Origin: Candidatus Poribacteria bacterium
GTDB taxonomy: Bacteria > Poribacteria > WGA-4E > JAJDTR01
Assembly: GCA_965222225.1 (NCBI GenBank)
Contig: CBDCTK010000002.1
Location: 960,001-1,024,000, forward strand
Reading direction: 5' to 3'
Length of the DNA: 64,000 bases
The notes under the pieces are model-generated. The model saw only the letters and a list, made by a program, of their open reading frames with translations, ran no database searches and was not told the origin of the DNA. Position numbers and translations under genes: made by a program. This document shows positions 4,794 through 34,921 of the stretch, piece by piece. How positions within the stretch are numbered: position 1 is the first letter of the stretch; each line of letters starts with the position of its first letter.

Positions 4794-5006
4794 ATCACGG
4801 TAAGCTCAAATACCAATGCCTTCGATATCAAACTAGCAATTCGAACCTTTTCTACAACAATTATGTAGTAGTGATCTTCGATAATACATTGAAGAATTTC
4901 TCTGCACCGCAAAGATTGTTCGGGGTAATCAATCTGGCGCAACCTTTCAACCTGCCATTCGACGATATTGTCCACTAGGTTTAACTTTCACTGTTGGAGT
5001 AACAAG

Positions 5007-6554
5007 ATGTCAATGTGGCTTACGAATCAGCAAATTCAGCATTTGCGGCGCGGATACCAAAAGAATATCGAGTCCCCTGTGCCAACGCAGGTTATCTCCA
5101 GCGGAGAGTGCTTTCCCCCGCCGCAAACCCGTCAACAGGTTCAGGTAGAGTCGCTGATTCAGGAAAATGCTCAAGTATATGCTCGTCGTCAGGGTTTGGA
5201 GCGTCAATCCTACCTACGTTCTCGCAGCGGCATGGCTAGCGCATTTCTCGCCATGAATCAGGTATTCGGAGAGGTTTACGAAATCGACCCCGCCGAAGCC
5301 GAAGACCACGCTGCTGCGCGCGAACGACATGACAAAACCGCAGATCAGTTTATCTTTGATGTCCATACCCATCATGTACACGACGATTACAGTTGGGAGG
5401 GCATACTTTGGTTACGTGACGCCGCCCGTGGAAACAACCAAGCAAAGAAACCGTGGAACCCGGATCTTACCGACTTGGAACTCGATCTCAAATATTACAA
5501 GTTCGACTACTATCTCAAGGACATGTTCTTCGATAGCGATACCACGGTTGCCCTGCTAAGCACGTCGCCGGCAGTCGATCCGTATAAAAGGCTTCTATCC
5601 GATGATCAGATGGTCGCCACAAGAAACCTCGTCAATCGCCTGTCCGGTACGCGGCGGATGTTTGCCCACGGGATTATCTGGCCAAGTATTCCCGAGTATT
5701 CGGAGGCGATGGAGCGCGCCGCCACGGAACTGAAGGTGGATTCGTGGAAAGGCTACACTGTTGGAGATATACTCGGCGAAATACCGAGTTTTGAAAAACC
5801 TTGGCTCATGGACGACGAAGATCTGACCTATCCAACCTACGAAAAGGCACGTAAGTTAGGTGTCCGAACCATATGCGTACACAAGGGAGTCTTGCCAATC
5901 GACTACGAGACAATCCCAAACTGGCATTACGCCTCGGTGGATGATGTTGGAAAAGCGGCTCAGGATTGGCCCGACTTAAATTTCCACATCTATCACGCCG
6001 GCTTGAAAATGTGGCGGGACGCTCGTAGCGTCAGTGAAGAGTTTGAAAGGACCGGACGGCTGGAGTGGATTGACGAGATGGCAGCAATACCCGAAAAATA
6101 CGGCGTCTCGAACGTGTATGCCGACATCGGGCTTTCGTTCGGCGCCTTGGCTATTACGCATCCCAGGATTGCCGCCGCGATGCTGGCAAAACTAGTCAAA
6201 GGGCTCGGAGCCGATCGCGTCCTCTGGGGCACGGATTCAATCTGGGCGGGGTCGCCGCAATGGCAAATCGAGGCATTCCGACGTATTGAAATTCCACCCG
6301 ATATACAGGAAAAATACGACTTTGAACCGCTAGGCCCCCCAGATGGTCCAGTAAAAACCGCTATCTTTGGCGTCAACGCCGCCTGTCAATACGGCATCGA
6401 ATTAGACGTGAACCGCCGTCCGATAGCAGATTACCGGAACGACGAGCTGTCACGCCTGAAAGCCGAGTATCTGGCAGCCGGCAACCAGCGCGATAATCTG
6501 TACTGGGGTTGGATACAACAACAGAAAGCCAATTCACCTGCCTGTCCTCCATAG
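5007..6554 (+). CDS. Amidohydrolase family protein
   Basis: DVHTHHVH, ICVHKG, IYHAG and WGTDSIW metal-binding motifs. Confidence 0.85.
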   Translation: MSMWLTNQQIQHLRRGYQKNIESPVPTQVISSGECFPPPQTRQQVQVESLIQENAQVYARRQGLERQSYLRSRSGMASAFLAMNQVFGEVYEIDPAEAEDHAAARERHDKTADQFIFDVHTHHVHDDYSWEGILWLRDAARGNNQAKKPWNPDLTDLELDLKYYKFDYYLKDMFFDSDTTVALLSTSPAVDPYKRLLSDDQMVATRNLVNRLSGTRRMFAHGIIWPSIPEYSEAMERAATELKVDSWKGYTVGDILGEIPSFEKPWLMDDEDLTYPTYEKARKLGVRTICVHKGVLPIDYETIPNWHYASVDDVGKAAQDWPDLNFHIYHAGLKMWRDARSVSEEFERTGRLEWIDEMAAIPEKYGVSNVYADIGLSFGALAITHPRIAAAMLAKLVKGLGADRVLWGTDSIWAGSPQWQIEAFRRIEIPPDIQEKYDFEPLGPPDGPVKTAIFGVNAACQYGIELDVNRRPIADYRNDELSRLKAEYLAAGNQRDNLYWGWIQQQKANSPACPP

Positions 6555-6707
6555 AATTGCTAATGCCGGTTATCAATTGAGGTATCCAAATCGTGCGTCT
6601 TCTTGACGAGTAACCGTCATTGTATATATCGGTGCCTCTCAAGGTATTTGGCGTGCCTCAAGAAATAGTGCAAAAGTGGCCAGTGAAGGCAATCCCCGTT
6701 ACGGATT

Positions 6708-7535
6708 CTACGCACGTTTCGGCGGGGCGGCAGACACCCCTTCCAAACCTCCGCTGACTCTGAGGACCTCACCGGTTATCCAGGACGCCTGAGGACTACA
6801 TAGGAAGGTCACTACCCGTGCGATGTCGATCGGTTCGCCCCATCGTCCTAACGGAATTGCCGTACGGATGCGTTCAATCATCTCGTCCTCGGTGATGTTC
6901 AAGCTCTGGCAGCGTTGCGCCATGGTTTGCCTATTGAACTCGGTGTATACGGGCCCTGGACTCACGGCATTTACGCGCACGCCGTAAGCCGCCAACTCTA
7001 TCGCCAAGGTTCGGGTCAGGCTGATTACCCCCGCTTTCGCTACGTTATAAGCTGCAACCAGCGCCGCTGGATTCTGACCGTTGATTGATGCGAGGTTTAC
7101 GATGCACCCCGACTCCTGCTGTTCCATAATTGCCCCTGCCGCGCGACAACAGTAGAACGTCCCGGTCAATGTCGCGCTCAAAACCCGATCCCACTCCTCA
7201 TCGCTCAAGGCAACGACTGGGGCGATATTCTGTCCGACGCCGGCATTATTGACAAGAATATCCATCCGTCCATGTTCGTCTATCACATCATCAAAAAATG
7301 CAGTGGCTCCGGCACTATCGGTAATGTTCAAGTAAGCTGCCTGCACTTTTAAGCCATCTGTCTGCAGCCGCGCGGCTTCAGTCCTACCCTTGTCGTGTTG
7401 CAGGTCGGCGATGATTACCGTTGCGCCATCGCGGGCGAGTTGCTCGCAGATTCCCAAACCCAACCCCTGGGAAGCCCCGGTCACCACTGCGATCAAACCA
7501 TCAAGGTTGCGCGGAGCAGCCACACTATCGTTCAT
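6708..7535 (-). CDS. Short-chain dehydrogenase/reductase
   Basis: TGASQGLG, NNAG, YNVAK. Confidence 0.92.
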   Translation of the reverse strand: MNDSVAAPRNLDGLIAVVTGASQGLGLGICEQLARDGATVIIADLQHDKGRTEAARLQTDGLKVQAAYLNITDSAGATAFFDDVIDEHGRMDILVNNAGVGQNIAPVVALSDEEWDRVLSATLTGTFYCCRAAGAIMEQQESGCIVNLASINGQNPAALVAAYNVAKAGVISLTRTLAIELAAYGVRVNAVSPGPVYTEFNRQTMAQRCQSLNITEDEMIERIRTAIPLGRWGEPIDIARVVTFLCSPQASWITGEVLRVSGGLEGVSAAPPKRA

Positions 7536-7572
7536 GAATATACCTCCTCGGATTCAATTACCGTCTGAAGAT

Positions 7573-8742
7573 TCATAGCCCTTCCATACTCACCCATGTC
7601 GATCCTTTTTCGCATGACTCAACTGCTTTATAGATGAACTGCATGCCTCGAAGGCCATCATAAACAGTCGGGAAGTTATATTCCTTGCTCTTCAAAGGCT
7701 TGCCATCGATGTGTTGCCGTATTGCCTCAACGACACCCACGTAAATGGTAGCGAAACCCTCCAAGTACCCTTCCGGATGTCCGGGTGGGATACGTGCGCT
7801 CACGACCGCCGCTTCAGAAAGATACCCCTGGCCGCGAGTAAGTGTCTGCCTCGGCTTGCCATAACGATAGAGTTCTAGGTAGTTCGGATTCTCGTGTGCC
7901 CACTTAACCGCTCCATTTTCAGCGTACACGCGGAGCGTCAATCCATTCTCTTCACCGGTAGCCACCTGGCTGATAGTGAGCACGCCCTTCCCGCCTCCTT
8001 TGAAGCGGAGTAGCGCATTGACATCTTCGTCAAGCACTCGATCCGGGAGGAATGTACTCTTGTCCGCACACAATTCGGTAATCGGATCTCTCGTGACGTA
8101 CTCTAGCAAGTTTACACAGTGCGTTCCTACATCACCCAGTGTACCGCCGATACCAGACTGCGTAGGATCAACCCGCCAAGCCGCCTGCTTTTGGCCAAGT
8201 TTCTCGTGGGGCACCATAAGGAAATCCTGGAGATATTCGACAATCACTTTGCGAATGGCTCCCATCTCGCCGGATTGGAACAGAGACCGCGCGTGTTTGA
8301 TGAGCGGGTGTCCAGTGTAGTTATGCGTCAATGCAAAGATAAGCCCTGACTCCTCCACGAGATTGACAAGATCCTTCGCCTCGCTGAGATTGTAGGTCAT
8401 CGGCTTATCGCAGACCACGTGGAACCCGGCTTCCAGAAATGTCTTTGCGATGGCATGATGGGAGACATTTGGCGTCACAATGCTAACAAAATCAATCCGC
8501 TCGTCCTCAGAGAGACTAGCTTCGGCTTCAGCCATTTCTCCATACGTACCGTAGCAGCGTGGTGGGGCAAGGTAAAGTTGCTCACCGGTAATCTTTGTGT
8601 TCTTGGGAACCTGTGAGAAACAGCCCGCGACAAGTTCGACCTGTTGATCGAGAGTGGCGGCGATACGATGCACACCGCCGATAAATGCACCCGGGCCGCC
8701 GCCAACCATACCCATTCGTAATTTACGTTTCCAAGATTCCAT
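7573..8742 (-). CDS. Gfo/Idh/MocA oxidoreductase
   Basis: GMVGGGPGAFIGGVH, CDKP, GDVGTH. Confidence 0.9.
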   Translation of the reverse strand: MESWKRKLRMGMVGGGPGAFIGGVHRIAATLDQQVELVAGCFSQVPKNTKITGEQLYLAPPRCYGTYGEMAEAEASLSEDERIDFVSIVTPNVSHHAIAKTFLEAGFHVVCDKPMTYNLSEAKDLVNLVEESGLIFALTHNYTGHPLIKHARSLFQSGEMGAIRKVIVEYLQDFLMVPHEKLGQKQAAWRVDPTQSGIGGTLGDVGTHCVNLLEYVTRDPITELCADKSTFLPDRVLDEDVNALLRFKGGGKGVLTISQVATGEENGLTLRVYAENGAVKWAHENPNYLELYRYGKPRQTLTRGQGYLSEAAVVSARIPPGHPEGYLEGFATIYVGVVEAIRQHIDGKPLKSKEYNFPTVYDGLRGMQFIYKAVESCEKGSTWVSMEGL

Positions 8743-8806
8743 TGATTTGCCTCCGTAAAAAGCAATAGAACCGCGCGGTTCTTAACTCCGACCGAATTTC
8801 CCCCGC

Positions 8807-9859
8807 TTATCCGCTCAAACCGAGAATCTTTCGATTGCGCGCGAGATTCACTTCACCACCCGCGAAGTCATCAAAGGCTACGTCAGTGGTTTCAATGATG
8901 TGATCGGCAATAAAGGGCGCACCTTCCGCCGCTCCTTGTGCTGGACTTTTCACGCAACATTCCCACTCAAGTGTCGCCCAGCCTTCATAACCGGCCTCCG
9001 CCAACAGCGTGAACACACGCCTAAAATCAACCTGACCATCGCCGAGCGAACGGAATCGACCTGCACGTCCCGCCCAAGGTTGATATCCTCCATAGACGCC
9101 TACACGCCCGGTTGGACGAAACTCCGCGTCCTTGACGTGAAATCCCCTGACGCGCTCACCATAAATCCTGATGAACTCAAGGTAATCGAGTTGTTGTAGC
9201 AGAAGGTGGCTCGGATCGTAATTCAGGCATGCTGCAGGGTGATCGTCGGTGTAACTGAGGAACATCTCGTAGGTAGCGCCATCGTAGATGTCCGAGCCAG
9301 GGTGTAACTCGTAGGCGAAGACACTCCCATTGTCATGGGCTAAATCCAAAAGCGGCCGCCACCGCTTAGCTAACTCCTTGAACGCCTCGTCAATTATCCC
9401 CTCGGGACGTTGAGGCCAAGGATAAACCATGTGCCATGCGAACGCACCAGATAGCGTCGGGATGACCTCGGTGCCCATATTGACCGAAGCGTAAACGCAT
9501 TTCTTTAATTCTCCCGCAGCCCATTCGGTTATGGCATCTCCCTTCAAGCCTGCCGGATGAAACGCTTCAAACATGACCTCGTACGCTGGATGCACCGCGA
9601 GAACCTGTCCCGCGAGATAGCCCCCTAACTCTGATGGCTCGAGCCCTATCTCTTTTAGTTGGCCTTTGTAATCATCACAATACATCTTCGATTCCGCAGC
9701 CCGGTCAATATCAATGACCCGCGCGTCCCAAGTCGGAATTTGAACGCCTCTGTATCCCAAACCTGCAACCCATCGTGCAATGTTTTGAATACTGTTGTAC
9801 GGCTCCTCGTCCCTTATGAACTGGGCGAGTAAAATACCTGGTCCCTTCATTTTCGGCAT
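8807..9859 (-). CDS. Sugar phosphate isomerase/epimerase (xylose isomerase-like TIM barrel)
   Basis: YELHP, NYDPSH, FHVKDAEF, LEWEC; co-oriented with the Gfo/Idh/MocA and SDR genes. Confidence 0.88.
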   Translation of the reverse strand: MPKMKGPGILLAQFIRDEEPYNSIQNIARWVAGLGYRGVQIPTWDARVIDIDRAAESKMYCDDYKGQLKEIGLEPSELGGYLAGQVLAVHPAYEVMFEAFHPAGLKGDAITEWAAGELKKCVYASVNMGTEVIPTLSGAFAWHMVYPWPQRPEGIIDEAFKELAKRWRPLLDLAHDNGSVFAYELHPGSDIYDGATYEMFLSYTDDHPAACLNYDPSHLLLQQLDYLEFIRIYGERVRGFHVKDAEFRPTGRVGVYGGYQPWAGRAGRFRSLGDGQVDFRRVFTLLAEAGYEGWATLEWECCVKSPAQGAAEGAPFIADHIIETTDVAFDDFAGGEVNLARNRKILGLSG

Positions 9860-9891
9860 AGCTGACTCCTTACACCTATTTCCACATTTTT

Positions 9892-10057
9892 GTAATGGTC
9901 AGGAAGATGTGAGACACTCATAGCTGCTTCCCGCAAGAGGGTTAATCTGCGATTTTATAATCGCAGATCGGCTTGGATTACCAAATCCAGGTCTTGACCG
10001 ATGGGGTAGTGAATACACGGGAGCAGTACGGCGTGTAAGCCATCGTTGACTAATACA
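9892..10057 (+). mobile_element. Structured non-coding element, copy A (MITE/SINE-like, probable RNA structure)
   Basis: Aligns end to end with 34701-34869; several hairpins; ends GTAATGGTCA / TGACTAATAC; flanked by 16-nt direct repeat at 9876-9891 and 10058-10073. Confidence 0.75.
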
Positions 10058-10581
10058 CTATTCCCGCATTTTTTTATAATTCTCATAAGATCTTCGTGAC
10101 AAAAACTCCATCCGCTTTGCATGAGCAAGGTAACTGAGGTCTTCAGTATATCACTCGTGAACACTTTTGTCAATCTCGCGCCTGGGACCAGACAGGGGAA
10201 ACGAATCTGATTTTTCAGAATAGAGTTGCCAGAATAGTAGTCAAATAATTGTTATCCCGTGCGGCTTTGAGTCGTTTGTTGGCGACACCAAGTTTAGTTG
10301 ACGTTTCAGACTTGAGTAGATTGAGAGCAATGCGTCGAACAAAGGCAAACTTCTCACCGCTGTTATCTTCACGAATTCGAGACGCATCCTCACGGAAAGC
10401 AACATCCAATACCCAATGACATGAGTTCTCAATCCGCCAGTGATGCCTGGTGGCTTCAAGCAACTTAGCCGCATCGCCGGGAAGCGAAGAAATGTAGTAG
10501 CGTGTCTCGCTGCCTACCTATTGGTCGGCTTCTCGCTGAGCGGTGACTGTGACGACGGCGTTGAGATTAGTGACACCCTCA

Positions 10582-10694
10582 GGAATTTCTATCGCAGGAT
10601 TTGCTATCGCGCGCTCTATTCGCTTGCTTGATCCCCTTGTTCAGTCGCTCGATTGGTCACTAGTCGTTCCTTTGATCGTTATCCACTCCCTTGA
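10582..10694 (-). repeat. Modular TCAAG...GCGATAG micro-insertion, copy 1 (4+2 modules), inside ISAs1 transposase
   Basis: Reverse complement reads TCAAGGGAGTGGATAACGA TCAAAGG... TCGAGCGACTGAAC... TCAAGCAAGCG... GCGATAGCAAATCC TGCGATAGAAATTCC. Confidence 0.8.
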
Positions 10695-34232: not shown

Positions 34233-34700
34233 TCCTCTTGTCAGCGTTCAGAAGACGAAAGGGAAGAGAACTGAACTGAGTTCGCTTCTCCCGTTCCTTT
34301 CCCTCCTTCCCGTCCAAAGTCTATGCTAGATGCTTATCACTTCTCCAAACGCCACGGCACTATACTTTAAAACCTGTTTGAACATCCATCTTCTCTTATG
34401 AAAATAGCATTAATGCGAAGTTTGAATTTGTCTTGGGTAACACCTAAGTTTTCATGCCTCCTTGCCTATGACTTTACTGTCCACACTGCGCAGAAGCCAG
34501 TCATAGCAAGGGTTCTCACCCTTTTTTTGTGTCTACTGAAAACCCCAAGTTGGTATGAAAAGTATGAAAAGTATGAAATTTTCCAAGATTGACAAACGAC
34601 GTTCTCCAAGTCGCACCCAGGGTATTCAAACAGGTTCTTAAGAAATCGTACGCTGTTCCGACTTCCTTTTTGCCGGGAATGTGACTTTCCTGAAGATACC

Positions 34701-34869
34701 GTAATGGTCAGGCAGATGTGAGACATTCATAAGCTTTTTCCCGCAAGAGGGGAAATCTGCGATTTAATTATTGCAGATCGGCTTGGATTGCCAAATCCAA
34801 GCCTTGACCGATGAGATTGTCAATCCGCGGGAGTTGTATGGCGCGTAAACCATCTCGATGACTAATACA
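34701..34869 (+). mobile_element. Structured non-coding element, copy B
   Basis: Homologue of 9892-10057; flanked by CTTTCCTGAAGATACC (34685-34700) and TTTTCTTGAAGATACC (34870-34885). Confidence 0.75.
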
Positions 34870-34921
34870 TTTTCTTGAAGATACCTAAATTCCCGTCGAT
34901 CGTTAACCAAGAGGTGGCAAT

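What the first reader, a model, noticed from the sequence alone, without database searches (positions are those of the whole stretch)
9876..10073. Non-coding ~167-nt element with copy-specific 16-nt flanking duplications
Seen directly: 9892-10057 and 34701-34869 align end to end (roughly 80% by eye) in unrelated contexts. One is divergent from a minus-strand operon and the other precedes a sulfatase, so a cis riboswitch is unlikely. Copy A is bracketed by CTATTTCCACATTTTT / CTATTCCCGCATTTTT and copy B by CTTTCCTGAAGATACC / TTTTCTTGAAGATACC. Both pairs are 16 nt with two transitions and are unrelated to each other. The ends are only 8/10 inverted repeats. Most IS families make duplications of 14 bp or less; longer ones are known from IS1634/IS1549-like elements, casposons and target-primed retrotransposition. 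Inference: a non-autonomous element mobilised in trans, possibly through RNA (a bacterial SINE-like element). No cognate enzyme is in this window.
Basis: partly seen in the sequence, partly recalled or inferred. Interest (0 to 1): 0.85.

Follow-up and report, generated by a model that had tools for sequence, protein, structure and literature searches.

The report
Small transposon with 15-bp duplications
The repeat is a small non-coding DNA transposon that copies 15 bases of its target on insertion and was moved by an IS481-like transposase no longer present in this genome, so it is an ordinary kind of mobile element and not an RNA-borne one.

Summary
The two copies are real (84% identical) and belong to a family with 41 profile hits in this Candidatus Poribacteria genome and copies in all 9 congeners searched. 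The flanking repeats are true target-site duplications. Related genomes show empty sites with a single copy of the target. The duplication is 15 bp, not 16: the extra T is the element's first base. The element therefore reads 5'-TGT...ACA-3', with imperfect terminal inverted repeats of about 19 bp (14/19).

This is the signature of the IS481/IS1202 clade of DDE (integrase-like) transposons, not of retrotransposition. I found the autonomous family in Chloroflexota. These are 1.5-kb insertion sequences with the same termini (14-16 of 19 matches, against 8-9 for controls) and perfect 15- or 16-bp duplications. They encode a transposase of about 500 aa whose best match is IS481.

Short elements with the same termini occur in several phyla. 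No such transposase was found in this genome or its genus. Among 176 Poribacteria genomes, one holds a decayed remnant. The copies here are therefore stranded MITEs. The non-autonomous, trans-mobilised reading holds. The SINE-like reading does not.

The parts
9891..10057 (+). Copy A of the short transposon (167 bp, long variant carrying the optional middle hairpin). Begins TGTAATGGTCAGG and ends TTGACTAATACA.
   Evidence: An orthologous copy is present in G005, and the element is absent from this site in the other 8 congeners.
9876..9890 (.). Left copy of the 15-bp target-site duplication of copy A (CTATTTCCACATTTT).
   Evidence: It matches the right copy at 13/15.
10058..10072 (.). Right copy of the 15-bp target-site duplication of copy A (CTATTCCCGCATTTT).
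9891..9909 (+). Left terminal inverted repeat of copy A.
   Evidence: family consensus TGTAATGGTCAGGCAGATG.
10039..10057 (-). Right terminal inverted repeat of copy A.
   Evidence: family consensus, read inward, TGTATTAGTCAACGAGATG. It matches the left consensus at 14/19.
9945..9968 (+). Optional middle hairpin (10-bp stem). It lies in the ~33-nt module that the short 135-bp variants lack.
   Evidence: seed alignment showing the module present or absent. folds the same module in copy B.
9970..9993 (+). Central hairpin of the GGCTTGGATT-NNNN-AATCCAAGCC type, a palindrome also found on its own elsewhere in the genome.
34700..34869 (+). Copy B of the short transposon (170 bp). Its first base is C here and T in the orthologous G005 copy. 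It ends 52 nt before the sulfatase start codon.
34685..34699 (.). Left copy of the 15-bp target-site duplication of copy B (CTTTCCTGAAGATAC).
   Evidence: Empty sites in G001, G002, G003 and G007 carry one copy.
34870..34884 (.). Right copy of the 15-bp target-site duplication of copy B (TTTTCTTGAAGATAC).

Best explanation
The element is a miniature inverted-repeat transposable element (MITE). It is a 135-170 bp non-coding DNA transposon with 5'-TGT...ACA-3' ends and imperfect terminal inverted repeats of about 19 bp.

Proposed mechanism: a DDE (integrase-fold) transposase of an IS481-like family, supplied in trans, binds the two inverted repeats and exposes the 3'-OH at the terminal CA. It joins the two ends to target strands 15 bp apart, in an AT-rich, roughly symmetric site (V-T-W-T-T-T-N3-A-A-A-W-W-C). 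Repair of the two 15-nt gaps creates the flanking direct repeats.

Shown here:
- insertion with duplication of a 15-bp target (filled against empty sites);
- the termini;
- the family and its spread;
- autonomous 1.5-kb insertion sequences with the same termini and duplication length, encoding an IS481-like transposase;
- the lack of any such gene in this genome and genus.

Inferred: binding of that transposase to these ends, the DDE chemistry, whether movement is copy-out-paste-in or cut-and-paste, and loss of the enzyme from the lineage.

The copies in this window are old, stranded insertions. Their duplications have decayed to 13/15, and both are shared with G005.
For: Family. nhmmer finds 41 hits at E<0.01 in G000. 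All 9 congeners have copies.

Duplications. 8 of 16 two-ended copies have at least 14/16 matches, against a control maximum of 12 in 240 pairings. Of the 18 copies with at least 13/15, 7 are perfect.

Empty sites.
- Copy B is absent, with a single target copy, in G001, G002, G003 and G007 (4 of 8 congeners). It is present in G005.
- Copy A is absent in 8 of 9 congeners. Four of them (G001, G002, G004, G009) give a short alignable empty site.
- Of 14 G005 copies, 4 have co-linear flanks in G000. Three of those 4 are clean empty sites; for example G000 has exactly one CTATTTAGCTGAAAC.

Partner family.
- G176 carries an identical transposase C-terminus at 8 contig ends.
- That fragment is followed by a terminus matching the local short element's left end at 22/27, counted by eye.
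- Full-length relatives L361 and L364 (1546 bp) and L362 (1492 bp) have TGTA(A/T/C)T(G/A)GTCAA... ends and 15/15, 15/15 and 16/16 duplications.
- Their ends match the Poribacteria consensus ends at 14-16/19. Three IS1202-like elements and an IS3 match at 8-9/19.
- The best NCBIfam hit of the transposase is IS481 (148 bits). Pfam finds HTH_32, rve_3 and rve.
- A decayed homologue lies in Poribacteria G027 (43% identity, 7 stops).

Literature (passages read). TGT...ACA ends with about 15-bp duplications occur in some IS481 members, in IS481EU, and in the IS1202/ISTde1 subgroup.
Against: - No autonomous copy with these ends was found in any Poribacteria genome. The G027 remnant lacks ends.
- G005 gained copies after its split from G000, yet holds no such transposase.
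- The Poribacteria ends match the Chloroflexota IS ends at only 14-16/19, and the interiors are unrelated. Descent by internal deletion from these particular elements is therefore not shown.
- The transposase scores below the curated IS481 cut-off (148 against 224 bits).
- Four more distant relatives of the transposase (L365, L367, L368, L374) showed no such termini by my criterion (4 of 8 loci).
- No binding or transposition was tested.
- In the phylum-wide family searches only 8-13 candidates per genome were scored.
Confidence: 0.8

Rival explanations
1. The mobilising enzyme was a transposase of the IS1202 family proper (ISTde1 subgroup), which makes 15-17 bp duplications and has TGT ends.
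For: Literature passages give 15-17 bp duplications and 5'-TGT ends for this subgroup. As my own positive control, three IS1202-like elements in Chloroflexota (L272, L273, L277) have TGT...ACA ends and 16/16, 15/15 and 15/15 duplications.
Against: Their ends match the short element's ends at only 8-9/19. No NF033594 match over the cut-off was found in G000, the genus, the order (0 of 159) or the phylum (0 of 176). The family that does share the termini scores only 26.6 bits on NF033594.
Confidence: 0.08
2. One reading: a SINE-like element copied through RNA and inserted by target-primed reverse transcription.
For: It has long flanking duplications, no coding capacity and a strongly folding strand (z = -4.8). 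No enzyme is found nearby.
Against: It has terminal inverted repeats with TGT...ACA ends. The duplication is a fixed 15 bp (7 of 18 perfect, the rest 13-14/15) and not variable in length. It has no A-rich or repeat tail. Fragments are both 5'-only and 3'-only. Autonomous relatives encode a DDE transposase. Rfam gives nothing.
Confidence: 0.02
3. A casposon-derived short element moved by a Cas1-type integrase, which also makes duplications of about 14-15 bp. That duplication length is recalled, not from a call.
For: Only the duplication length and the presence of inverted repeats.
Against: Elements with the same ends and duplication length carry an rve-type transposase and nothing else. TGT...ACA ends are typical of integrase-fold DDE enzymes. 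I did not search the genome for Cas1.
Confidence: 0.01
4. A structured non-coding RNA gene or cis-regulatory element whose flanking repeats are incidental.
For: The strand folds well. The central hairpin exists in two mutually compensating variants, CT..AG in 9 copies and TC..GA in 15. Copy B lies 52 nt upstream of a sulfatase gene.
Against: Filled and empty sites show that it inserts as a unit. There is no Rfam match. It sits in unrelated contexts and in both orientations. The promoter and terminator scan was at background: 1 found against 0.6 expected. A secondary regulatory effect of individual copies is not excluded.
Confidence: 0.03

Closest known systems
IS481 family, the subset that makes ~15-bp duplications (ISMac4 and ISA0963-1 are named in PMC10045372; passages read)
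   Same: It has TGT...ACA ends and a ~15-bp target duplication. The transposase has an N-terminal HTH and an integrase-fold DDE core. The best NCBIfam hit of the autonomous relatives is IS481.
   Different: The element in the window encodes nothing. The related transposase scores below the curated IS481 cut-off (148 against 224 bits). It also has an R/Q/E-rich insert of about 170 aa between the HTH and the DDE core. I could not compare it with ISfinder entries.
IS1202 family, ISTde1 subgroup
   Same: It makes 15-17 bp duplications and has TGT ends with a bipartite inverted repeat of about 20 bp.
   Different: The inner repeat block differs (GAAAAG against AGATG), and the ends match at only 8-9/19. 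The NF033594 model gives 26.6 bits on the partner transposase. No member was found in 176 Poribacteria genomes.
Bacterial MITEs in general
   Same: It is short and non-coding, has terminal inverted repeats and target duplications, and occurs in many copies, mostly intergenic. It shares ends with an autonomous IS and depends on a transposase in trans.
   Different: The duplication is unusually long at 15 bp. The interior is modular, with hairpin modules present or absent and nested small repeats. The matching autonomous IS was found only in another phylum.
IS481EU / Banshee of parabasalids (PMC10045372; passages read)
   Same: TGT...ACA ends, 15-16 bp duplications and non-autonomous derivatives.
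   Different: Those are eukaryotic, and single families there show discrete lengths of 4, 15 and 25 bp. I saw only 15 bp (rarely 16) here.

Membership tests
MITE (non-autonomous DNA transposon) | Short, with no coding capacity | tested here: met
   The common forms are 135-170 bp. The ORFs overlapping copies A and B run across the element edges and have no support as genes.
MITE (non-autonomous DNA transposon) | Terminal inverted repeats | tested here: met
   The consensus ends match at 14/19, from 21 copies.
MITE (non-autonomous DNA transposon) | Target-site duplication of fixed length; empty sites carry one copy | tested here: met
   The duplication is 15 bp. Empty sites are shown.
MITE (non-autonomous DNA transposon) | An autonomous element with the same ends encoding a transposase | tested here: inconclusive
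   Such elements were found in Chloroflexota with ends matching at 14-16/19. None with ends was found in Poribacteria, only a decayed gene remnant in G027.
IS481 family | TGT...ACA termini | tested here: met
IS481 family | Transposase matches the curated IS481 model | tested here: inconclusive
   IS481 is the best hit for the partner family's transposase, but at 148.3 bits it is below the 224-bit cut-off. The next hit is IS3 at 99.6 bits. The element itself has no gene.
IS481 family | Duplication length within the family's range (2-15 bp; ~15 in a subset) | tested here: met
   15 bp. The range comes from PMC10045372 passages.
IS1202 family (ISTde1 subgroup) | Transposase matches NF033594 | tested here: not met
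   The partner transposase scores 26.6 bits against a cut-off of 250. The model is valid for the family, scoring 490 bits on the ISAjo2-plasmid transposase.
IS1202 family (ISTde1 subgroup) | 15-17 bp duplications and TGT ends | tested here: met
   These features are shared with part of IS481, so they do not discriminate.
SINE-like / target-primed retroelement | No inverted termini, a 3' tail, variable-length duplications and a 5'-truncation bias | tested here: not met
   Inverted termini are present, there is no tail, the duplication is a fixed 15 bp, and both 5'-only and 3'-only fragments occur.
Any Rfam RNA family | Match at the gathering score | tested here: not met
   No match in the window. 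The permissive scans gave one hit at 11.6 bits against a gathering score of 40 (E 0.69) and none for the other copy.

The most novel reading that the evidence does not exclude
The autonomous relatives may form an uncatalogued insertion-sequence group. It is IS481-like but scores below the curated cut-off, and it has an R/Q/E-rich insert of about 170 aa between the DNA-binding and catalytic parts. It makes 15-bp duplications. It has more than 2,500 relatives in public data, none with an IS name among the 120 listed.

Its short derivatives occur in Chloroflexota and Poribacteria. In the Poribacteria genus they kept inserting after two species diverged, although no genome of the genus retains the enzyme. 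The transposase would then have been supplied from a source that is lost or not in the assemblies, such as a plasmid, a phage or transient horizontal acquisition. The insert might set the 15-bp stagger between the two active sites.
Probability: 0.3. Interest if true: 0.45.

Novelty: new member of a known kind. Interest (0 to 1): 0.3.

Why it matters
It replaces an exotic reading (a bacterial SINE) with a documented one. It also gives annotators of Poribacteria and Chloroflexota genomes a defined repeat family: its ends, its 15-bp duplication, its target preference and its likely enzyme.

For mobile-DNA specialists there are three modest points of interest. First, it is a MITE family tied to the 15-bp-duplicating branch of IS481-like elements. 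Second, the same termini occur on short elements in different phyla. Third, the lineage carries many copies, some inserted after speciation, with no transposase left. Insertion polymorphisms between close genomes are usable as markers. Copies next to gene starts, such as the one 52 nt before a sulfatase gene, could affect expression, but this was not tested.

Tried and rejected
- Rfam: nothing at gathering or permissive thresholds.
- Long copies in G000: left and right ends within 8 kb with matching flanks gave only short elements, plus four poor pairs at 11/16 (447, 2196, 2790 and 4628 bp). My own estimate is about 5-6 such pairs by chance.
- Orphan 5' and 3' modules 3 kb apart at C2:5391632-5394708 enclose rpsP, trmD and rplS by my reading of the ORFs.
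- rve-domain genes: 5 in G000 and 35 in G005. I read them by eye as IS3 and IS630 types, plus one truncated IS21-like frame.
- The G005 IS3 has TGTAATTACCCCC ends and 3-bp duplications in 5 of 5 copies, so it was rejected.
- ISNCY models NF033593 and NF033594 found nothing in G000. The genus, order and phylum gave nothing over the cut-off. L122 is Mu/Tn7-like.
- IS481-like genes occur in 5 of 176 Poribacteria genomes. None has matching ends.
- G000's multi-copy IS families are IS1595, IS701, IS982-like, IS1-like and IS5. None belongs to the right clade.
- About 20 orphan left ends in G005 lead into ordinary genes.
- The metagenome scan returned 72 loci, none with a right end supported by a duplication.
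I ran two separate end patterns instead.
- Three plasmid accessions without the NZ_ prefix were not in the collection.
- The promoter and terminator scan around copy B was at background.

Full report
**Observation.** The two stretches exist as described. Window 9892-10057 and 34701-34869 align over their whole length at 84%, or 81% including flanks. Each is bracketed by its own direct repeat differing by two transitions. The contexts are unrelated. Copy A lies upstream of a minus-strand operon encoding a xylose-isomerase-like TIM-barrel protein and a GFO/IDH/MocA oxidoreductase. Copy B ends 52 nt before a sulfatase gene.

**A family, not a pair.** The window is G000:C2:960001-1024000. BLAST finds 25 matches in the genome. 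A profile built from 8 copies finds 41 hits at E<0.01.

The family is modular. It has a 5' module of about 43 nt and a 3' module of about 90 nt. Between them the element carries nothing (135-bp form), a 33-nt hairpin module (the 166-170 bp form of copies A and B), or longer nested inserts.

The six 135-bp copies in G000 are 78-84% identical to each other, mean 81% over 9 pairs. Eleven copies in the sister genome G005 average 87%, with a maximum of 96%.

**The flanking repeats exceed chance.** Sixteen copies have both ends. Eight of them have at least 14/16 identical bases in the exact register, and two more have 11-12. When the upstream flank of one copy is paired with the downstream flank of another (240 pairs), the maximum is 12, reached twice.

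**The duplication is 15 bp and the element starts with T.** I examined flanks of 20 copies fetched from relatives. Eleven of them, together with 7 G000 copies, have at least 13/15 matching: 7 perfect, 7 at 14 and 4 at 13. In these 18 copies the 16th base differs between the two sides in 10, and the upstream one is T in 16.

In copy B that base is C. The orthologous copy in G005 has T, so the matching C downstream is a coincidence.

The element is therefore 5'-TGT...ACA-3'. The consensus left end TGTAATGGTCAGGCAGATG matches the consensus right end (read inward) TGTATTAGTCAACGAGATG at 14/19.

The duplicated targets share a roughly symmetric AT-rich pattern, V-T-W-T-T-T-N3-A-A-A-W-W-C.

**Empty sites.** G005 is 94-95% identical to G000 across both loci and carries both insertions.
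- Copy B: four more distant congeners (G001, G002, G003, G007) have the orthologous intergenic region without the element and with one copy of the 15-mer. G009 has a different insert there. G004 and G006 are too rearranged to read.
- Copy A: none of the other 8 congeners has the element. Four (G001, G002, G004, G009) show a short alignable empty site with one target-like copy. The flanks are only about 79% identical, so this is less clean.
- In the other direction, 4 of 14 G005 copies have co-linear flanks in G000. Three of these 4 are clean empty sites. At L072, for example, G005 has CTATTTAGCTGAAAC on both sides and G000 has it once.

The element therefore inserts as a unit and duplicates 15 bp. 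It was still moving after G000 and G005 diverged.

**Not an RNA family and not a retroelement.** Rfam gives nothing at gathering scores. The permissive scans gave one hit at 11.6 bits (gathering score 40, E 0.69) and none for the other copy. The strand folds strongly (z = -4.8), but it does so through the paired termini and internal palindromes, as short transposons do. Inverted termini, TGT...ACA ends, a fixed duplication length, no tail, and both 5'-only and 3'-only fragments all argue against target-primed reverse transcription.

**Which enzyme?** From passages of three papers:
- The ISTde1 subgroup of the IS1202 family makes 15-17 bp duplications and has TGT ends (bioRxiv 10.1101/2022.12.17.520857; PMC10132070 Table 7).
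- A subset of IS481, and the eukaryotic IS481EU, have TGT...ACA ends and about 15-bp duplications (PMC10045372).

I first tested IS1202. NF033594 is the right model, scoring 490 bits on an annotated ISNCY transposase from the plasmid that the paper names for ISAjo2. It finds nothing in G000 and only HTH-level noise in the genus. Nothing exceeds the cut-off in 159 genomes of the order or 176 of the phylum.

rve-domain genes in G000 (5) and G005 (35) are IS3, IS630 or IS21 types by my reading. The G005 IS3 makes 3-bp duplications in 5 of 5 copies. IS481-like genes in 5 Poribacteria genomes have no matching ends. G000's abundant IS families are IS1595, IS701, IS982-like, IS1-like and IS5.

**Finding the autonomous family.** I scanned the species-representative genome collection for the left end and got 56 loci. 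I estimate about 35 by chance for 18 specified bases in about 1.2e12 positions. Fourteen loci had a right end supported by a duplication.

Seven of the 14 lie on the single record that returned nine loci. The other seven are in other Poribacteria, in a MAG titled Litorilinea aerophila (L206 and L226 at 15/15, L231 at 13/15), and in an Anaerolineae MAG (L220 at 14/15). Their interiors are unrelated to the Poribacteria family. The record titles are also where the name Candidatus Poribacteria comes from.

In the Litorilinea-titled genome (G176), an IS481-model search hit a transposase C-terminus at the very start of a contig. It is followed by a terminus whose reverse complement, TGTAGTGATCAGGATGATGATGAAATC, matches the local short element's left end at 22 of 27 positions, counted by eye. 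The same protein end sits at 8 contig ends of that genome, as expected of a multi-copy IS that broke the assembly.

Full-length relatives in other Chloroflexota are complete insertion sequences:
- L361: 1546 bp, ends TGTAATGGTCAATAACACT / TGTAATGGTCAAGGACACT, duplication 15/15.
- L364: 1546 bp, ends TGTATTGGTCAATGACATA / TGTATTGGTCAACGACATA, duplication 15/15, transposase 497 aa.
- L362: 1492 bp, ends TGTACTGGTCAACTAGATT / TGTATTAGTCAATCAGATT, duplication 16/16.
- L363: the same IS as L362, at a contig start.

Four more distant relatives showed no such ends by my criterion (4 of 8 loci examined).

These ends match the Poribacteria consensus ends at 14-16 of 19. Three IS1202-like elements that I characterised as a positive control (L272, L273, L277; TGT...ACA ends with 16-, 15- and 15-bp duplications) and the G005 IS3 match at only 8-9 of 19.

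**The transposase.** Its best NCBIfam hit is IS481 at 148 bits, below the 224-bit cut-off, matched in two stretches. IS3 follows at 100 bits, and NF033594 gives only 27 bits. Pfam finds HTH_32, rve_3 and a sub-threshold rve. Between the HTH and the catalytic core lies an R/Q/E-rich stretch of about 170 aa. More than 2,500 relatives at E<=1e-20 exist in public protein data. Many sit on contigs of 1.5-2 kb, and the 120 listed carry only generic names.

**Poribacteria and this enzyme.** A phylum-wide search with the 497-aa protein finds one real relative. It is a decayed fragment in G027, 43% identical over residues 20-281 with 7 in-frame stops, and no ends remain. G027 also carries a copy of the short element at 86% identity. 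Fully scored searches of G000, G005, G009, G001 and G004 find nothing beyond weak IS3 cross-hits.

**Conclusion.** The finding is a MITE family with TGT...ACA ends and a 15-bp target duplication. Its ends and duplication length tie it to an IS481-like insertion-sequence family that I could characterise in Chloroflexota. Only a remnant of that family is left in Poribacteria.

The copies in the window are old, stranded insertions. Both are shared with G005 and their duplications have decayed to 13/15.

Several things remain open:
- who supplied the enzyme for the insertions that G005 gained after speciation;
- whether the Poribacteria elements descend from a lost local IS or arrived as short elements;
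- whether the partner family is already catalogued in ISfinder.

My two literature searches for IS481-type MITEs and for MITEs in Poribacteria found nothing specific. One search returned 2 papers holding all three terms, neither on this by title or abstract start. None of the 12 papers listed mentions Poribacteria.

Noticed in passing
window 10193-10596: About 135 nt right of copy A lies another repeat of about 400 bp. It is present in many copies in G000 and in all congeners (for example more than 10 copies at 87-88% in G009).
   Followed up: no
window 34363-34645: Just left of copy B lies a different repeat family of about 280 bp, with dozens of matches at 70-80% in G005, G000 and other congeners. 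Both copies of the finding sit in intergenic nests of repeats.
   Followed up: no
G000 genome-wide; in the window at 9970-9993 and 34779-34802: The hairpin core YYTGGATT-N4-AATCCARR occurs 27 times in G000 (0 for the pattern read backwards). Only 14 of these lie inside hits of the element. It comes in two mutually compensating variants, CT..AG (9) and TC..GA (15). It also occurs alone in genomes of another Poribacteria family. It looks like an independent REP-like palindrome that the element carries.
   Followed up: partly
G000:C2:5125866-5126033 and C2:2348858-2348981: Two copies lose their right end at the same point inside the right inverted repeat and continue with GGCGTGTTGACATTT. That is the end of another repeat, with 8 copies at up to 1 mismatch, usually preceded by TAG. 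A second small element seems to have inserted into the first.
   Followed up: partly
L158 (G009), the site orthologous to window ~34685: G009 has a different insert of about 200 bp at the same intergenic spot where G000 and G005 have copy B. It carries the TC..GA hairpin variant and is flanked by a short TGATTCT repeat.
   Followed up: no
window 4877-7998 and 8669-9881 (G000:C2:964877-967998 and 968669-969881): The operon left of copy A has a paralogous copy elsewhere in the genome, at C2:4316156-4320497 (about 85% identity next to the element's site). The paralogue has no element at the corresponding place.
   Followed up: partly
G000 whole genome: The insertion-sequence load is heavy: 243 repeated intervals of at least 500 bp. 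Families include IS1595 (47 intervals), IS701 (24), IS982-like (10), IS1-like (8) and IS5 (6), plus a repeated tyrosine-recombinase gene (5).
   Followed up: partly
G000:C2:3671851-3671998 and C2:1654627-1654977; L143 (G005): Other short elements share the same termini but have different interiors: 148 bp with flanks matching 13/16, and 351 bp. G005 has a 705-bp non-coding variant with a perfect 15/15 duplication that is full of nested small repeats.
   Followed up: partly
L272, L273, L277 (Chloroflexota): Three IS1202-like insertion sequences (1374-1420 bp) have ends TGTT..GAAAAG and perfect 16-, 15- and 15-bp duplications. They score 140-182 bits on NF033594, below the cut-off. They fit the published ISTde1-type pattern.
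   Followed up: partly
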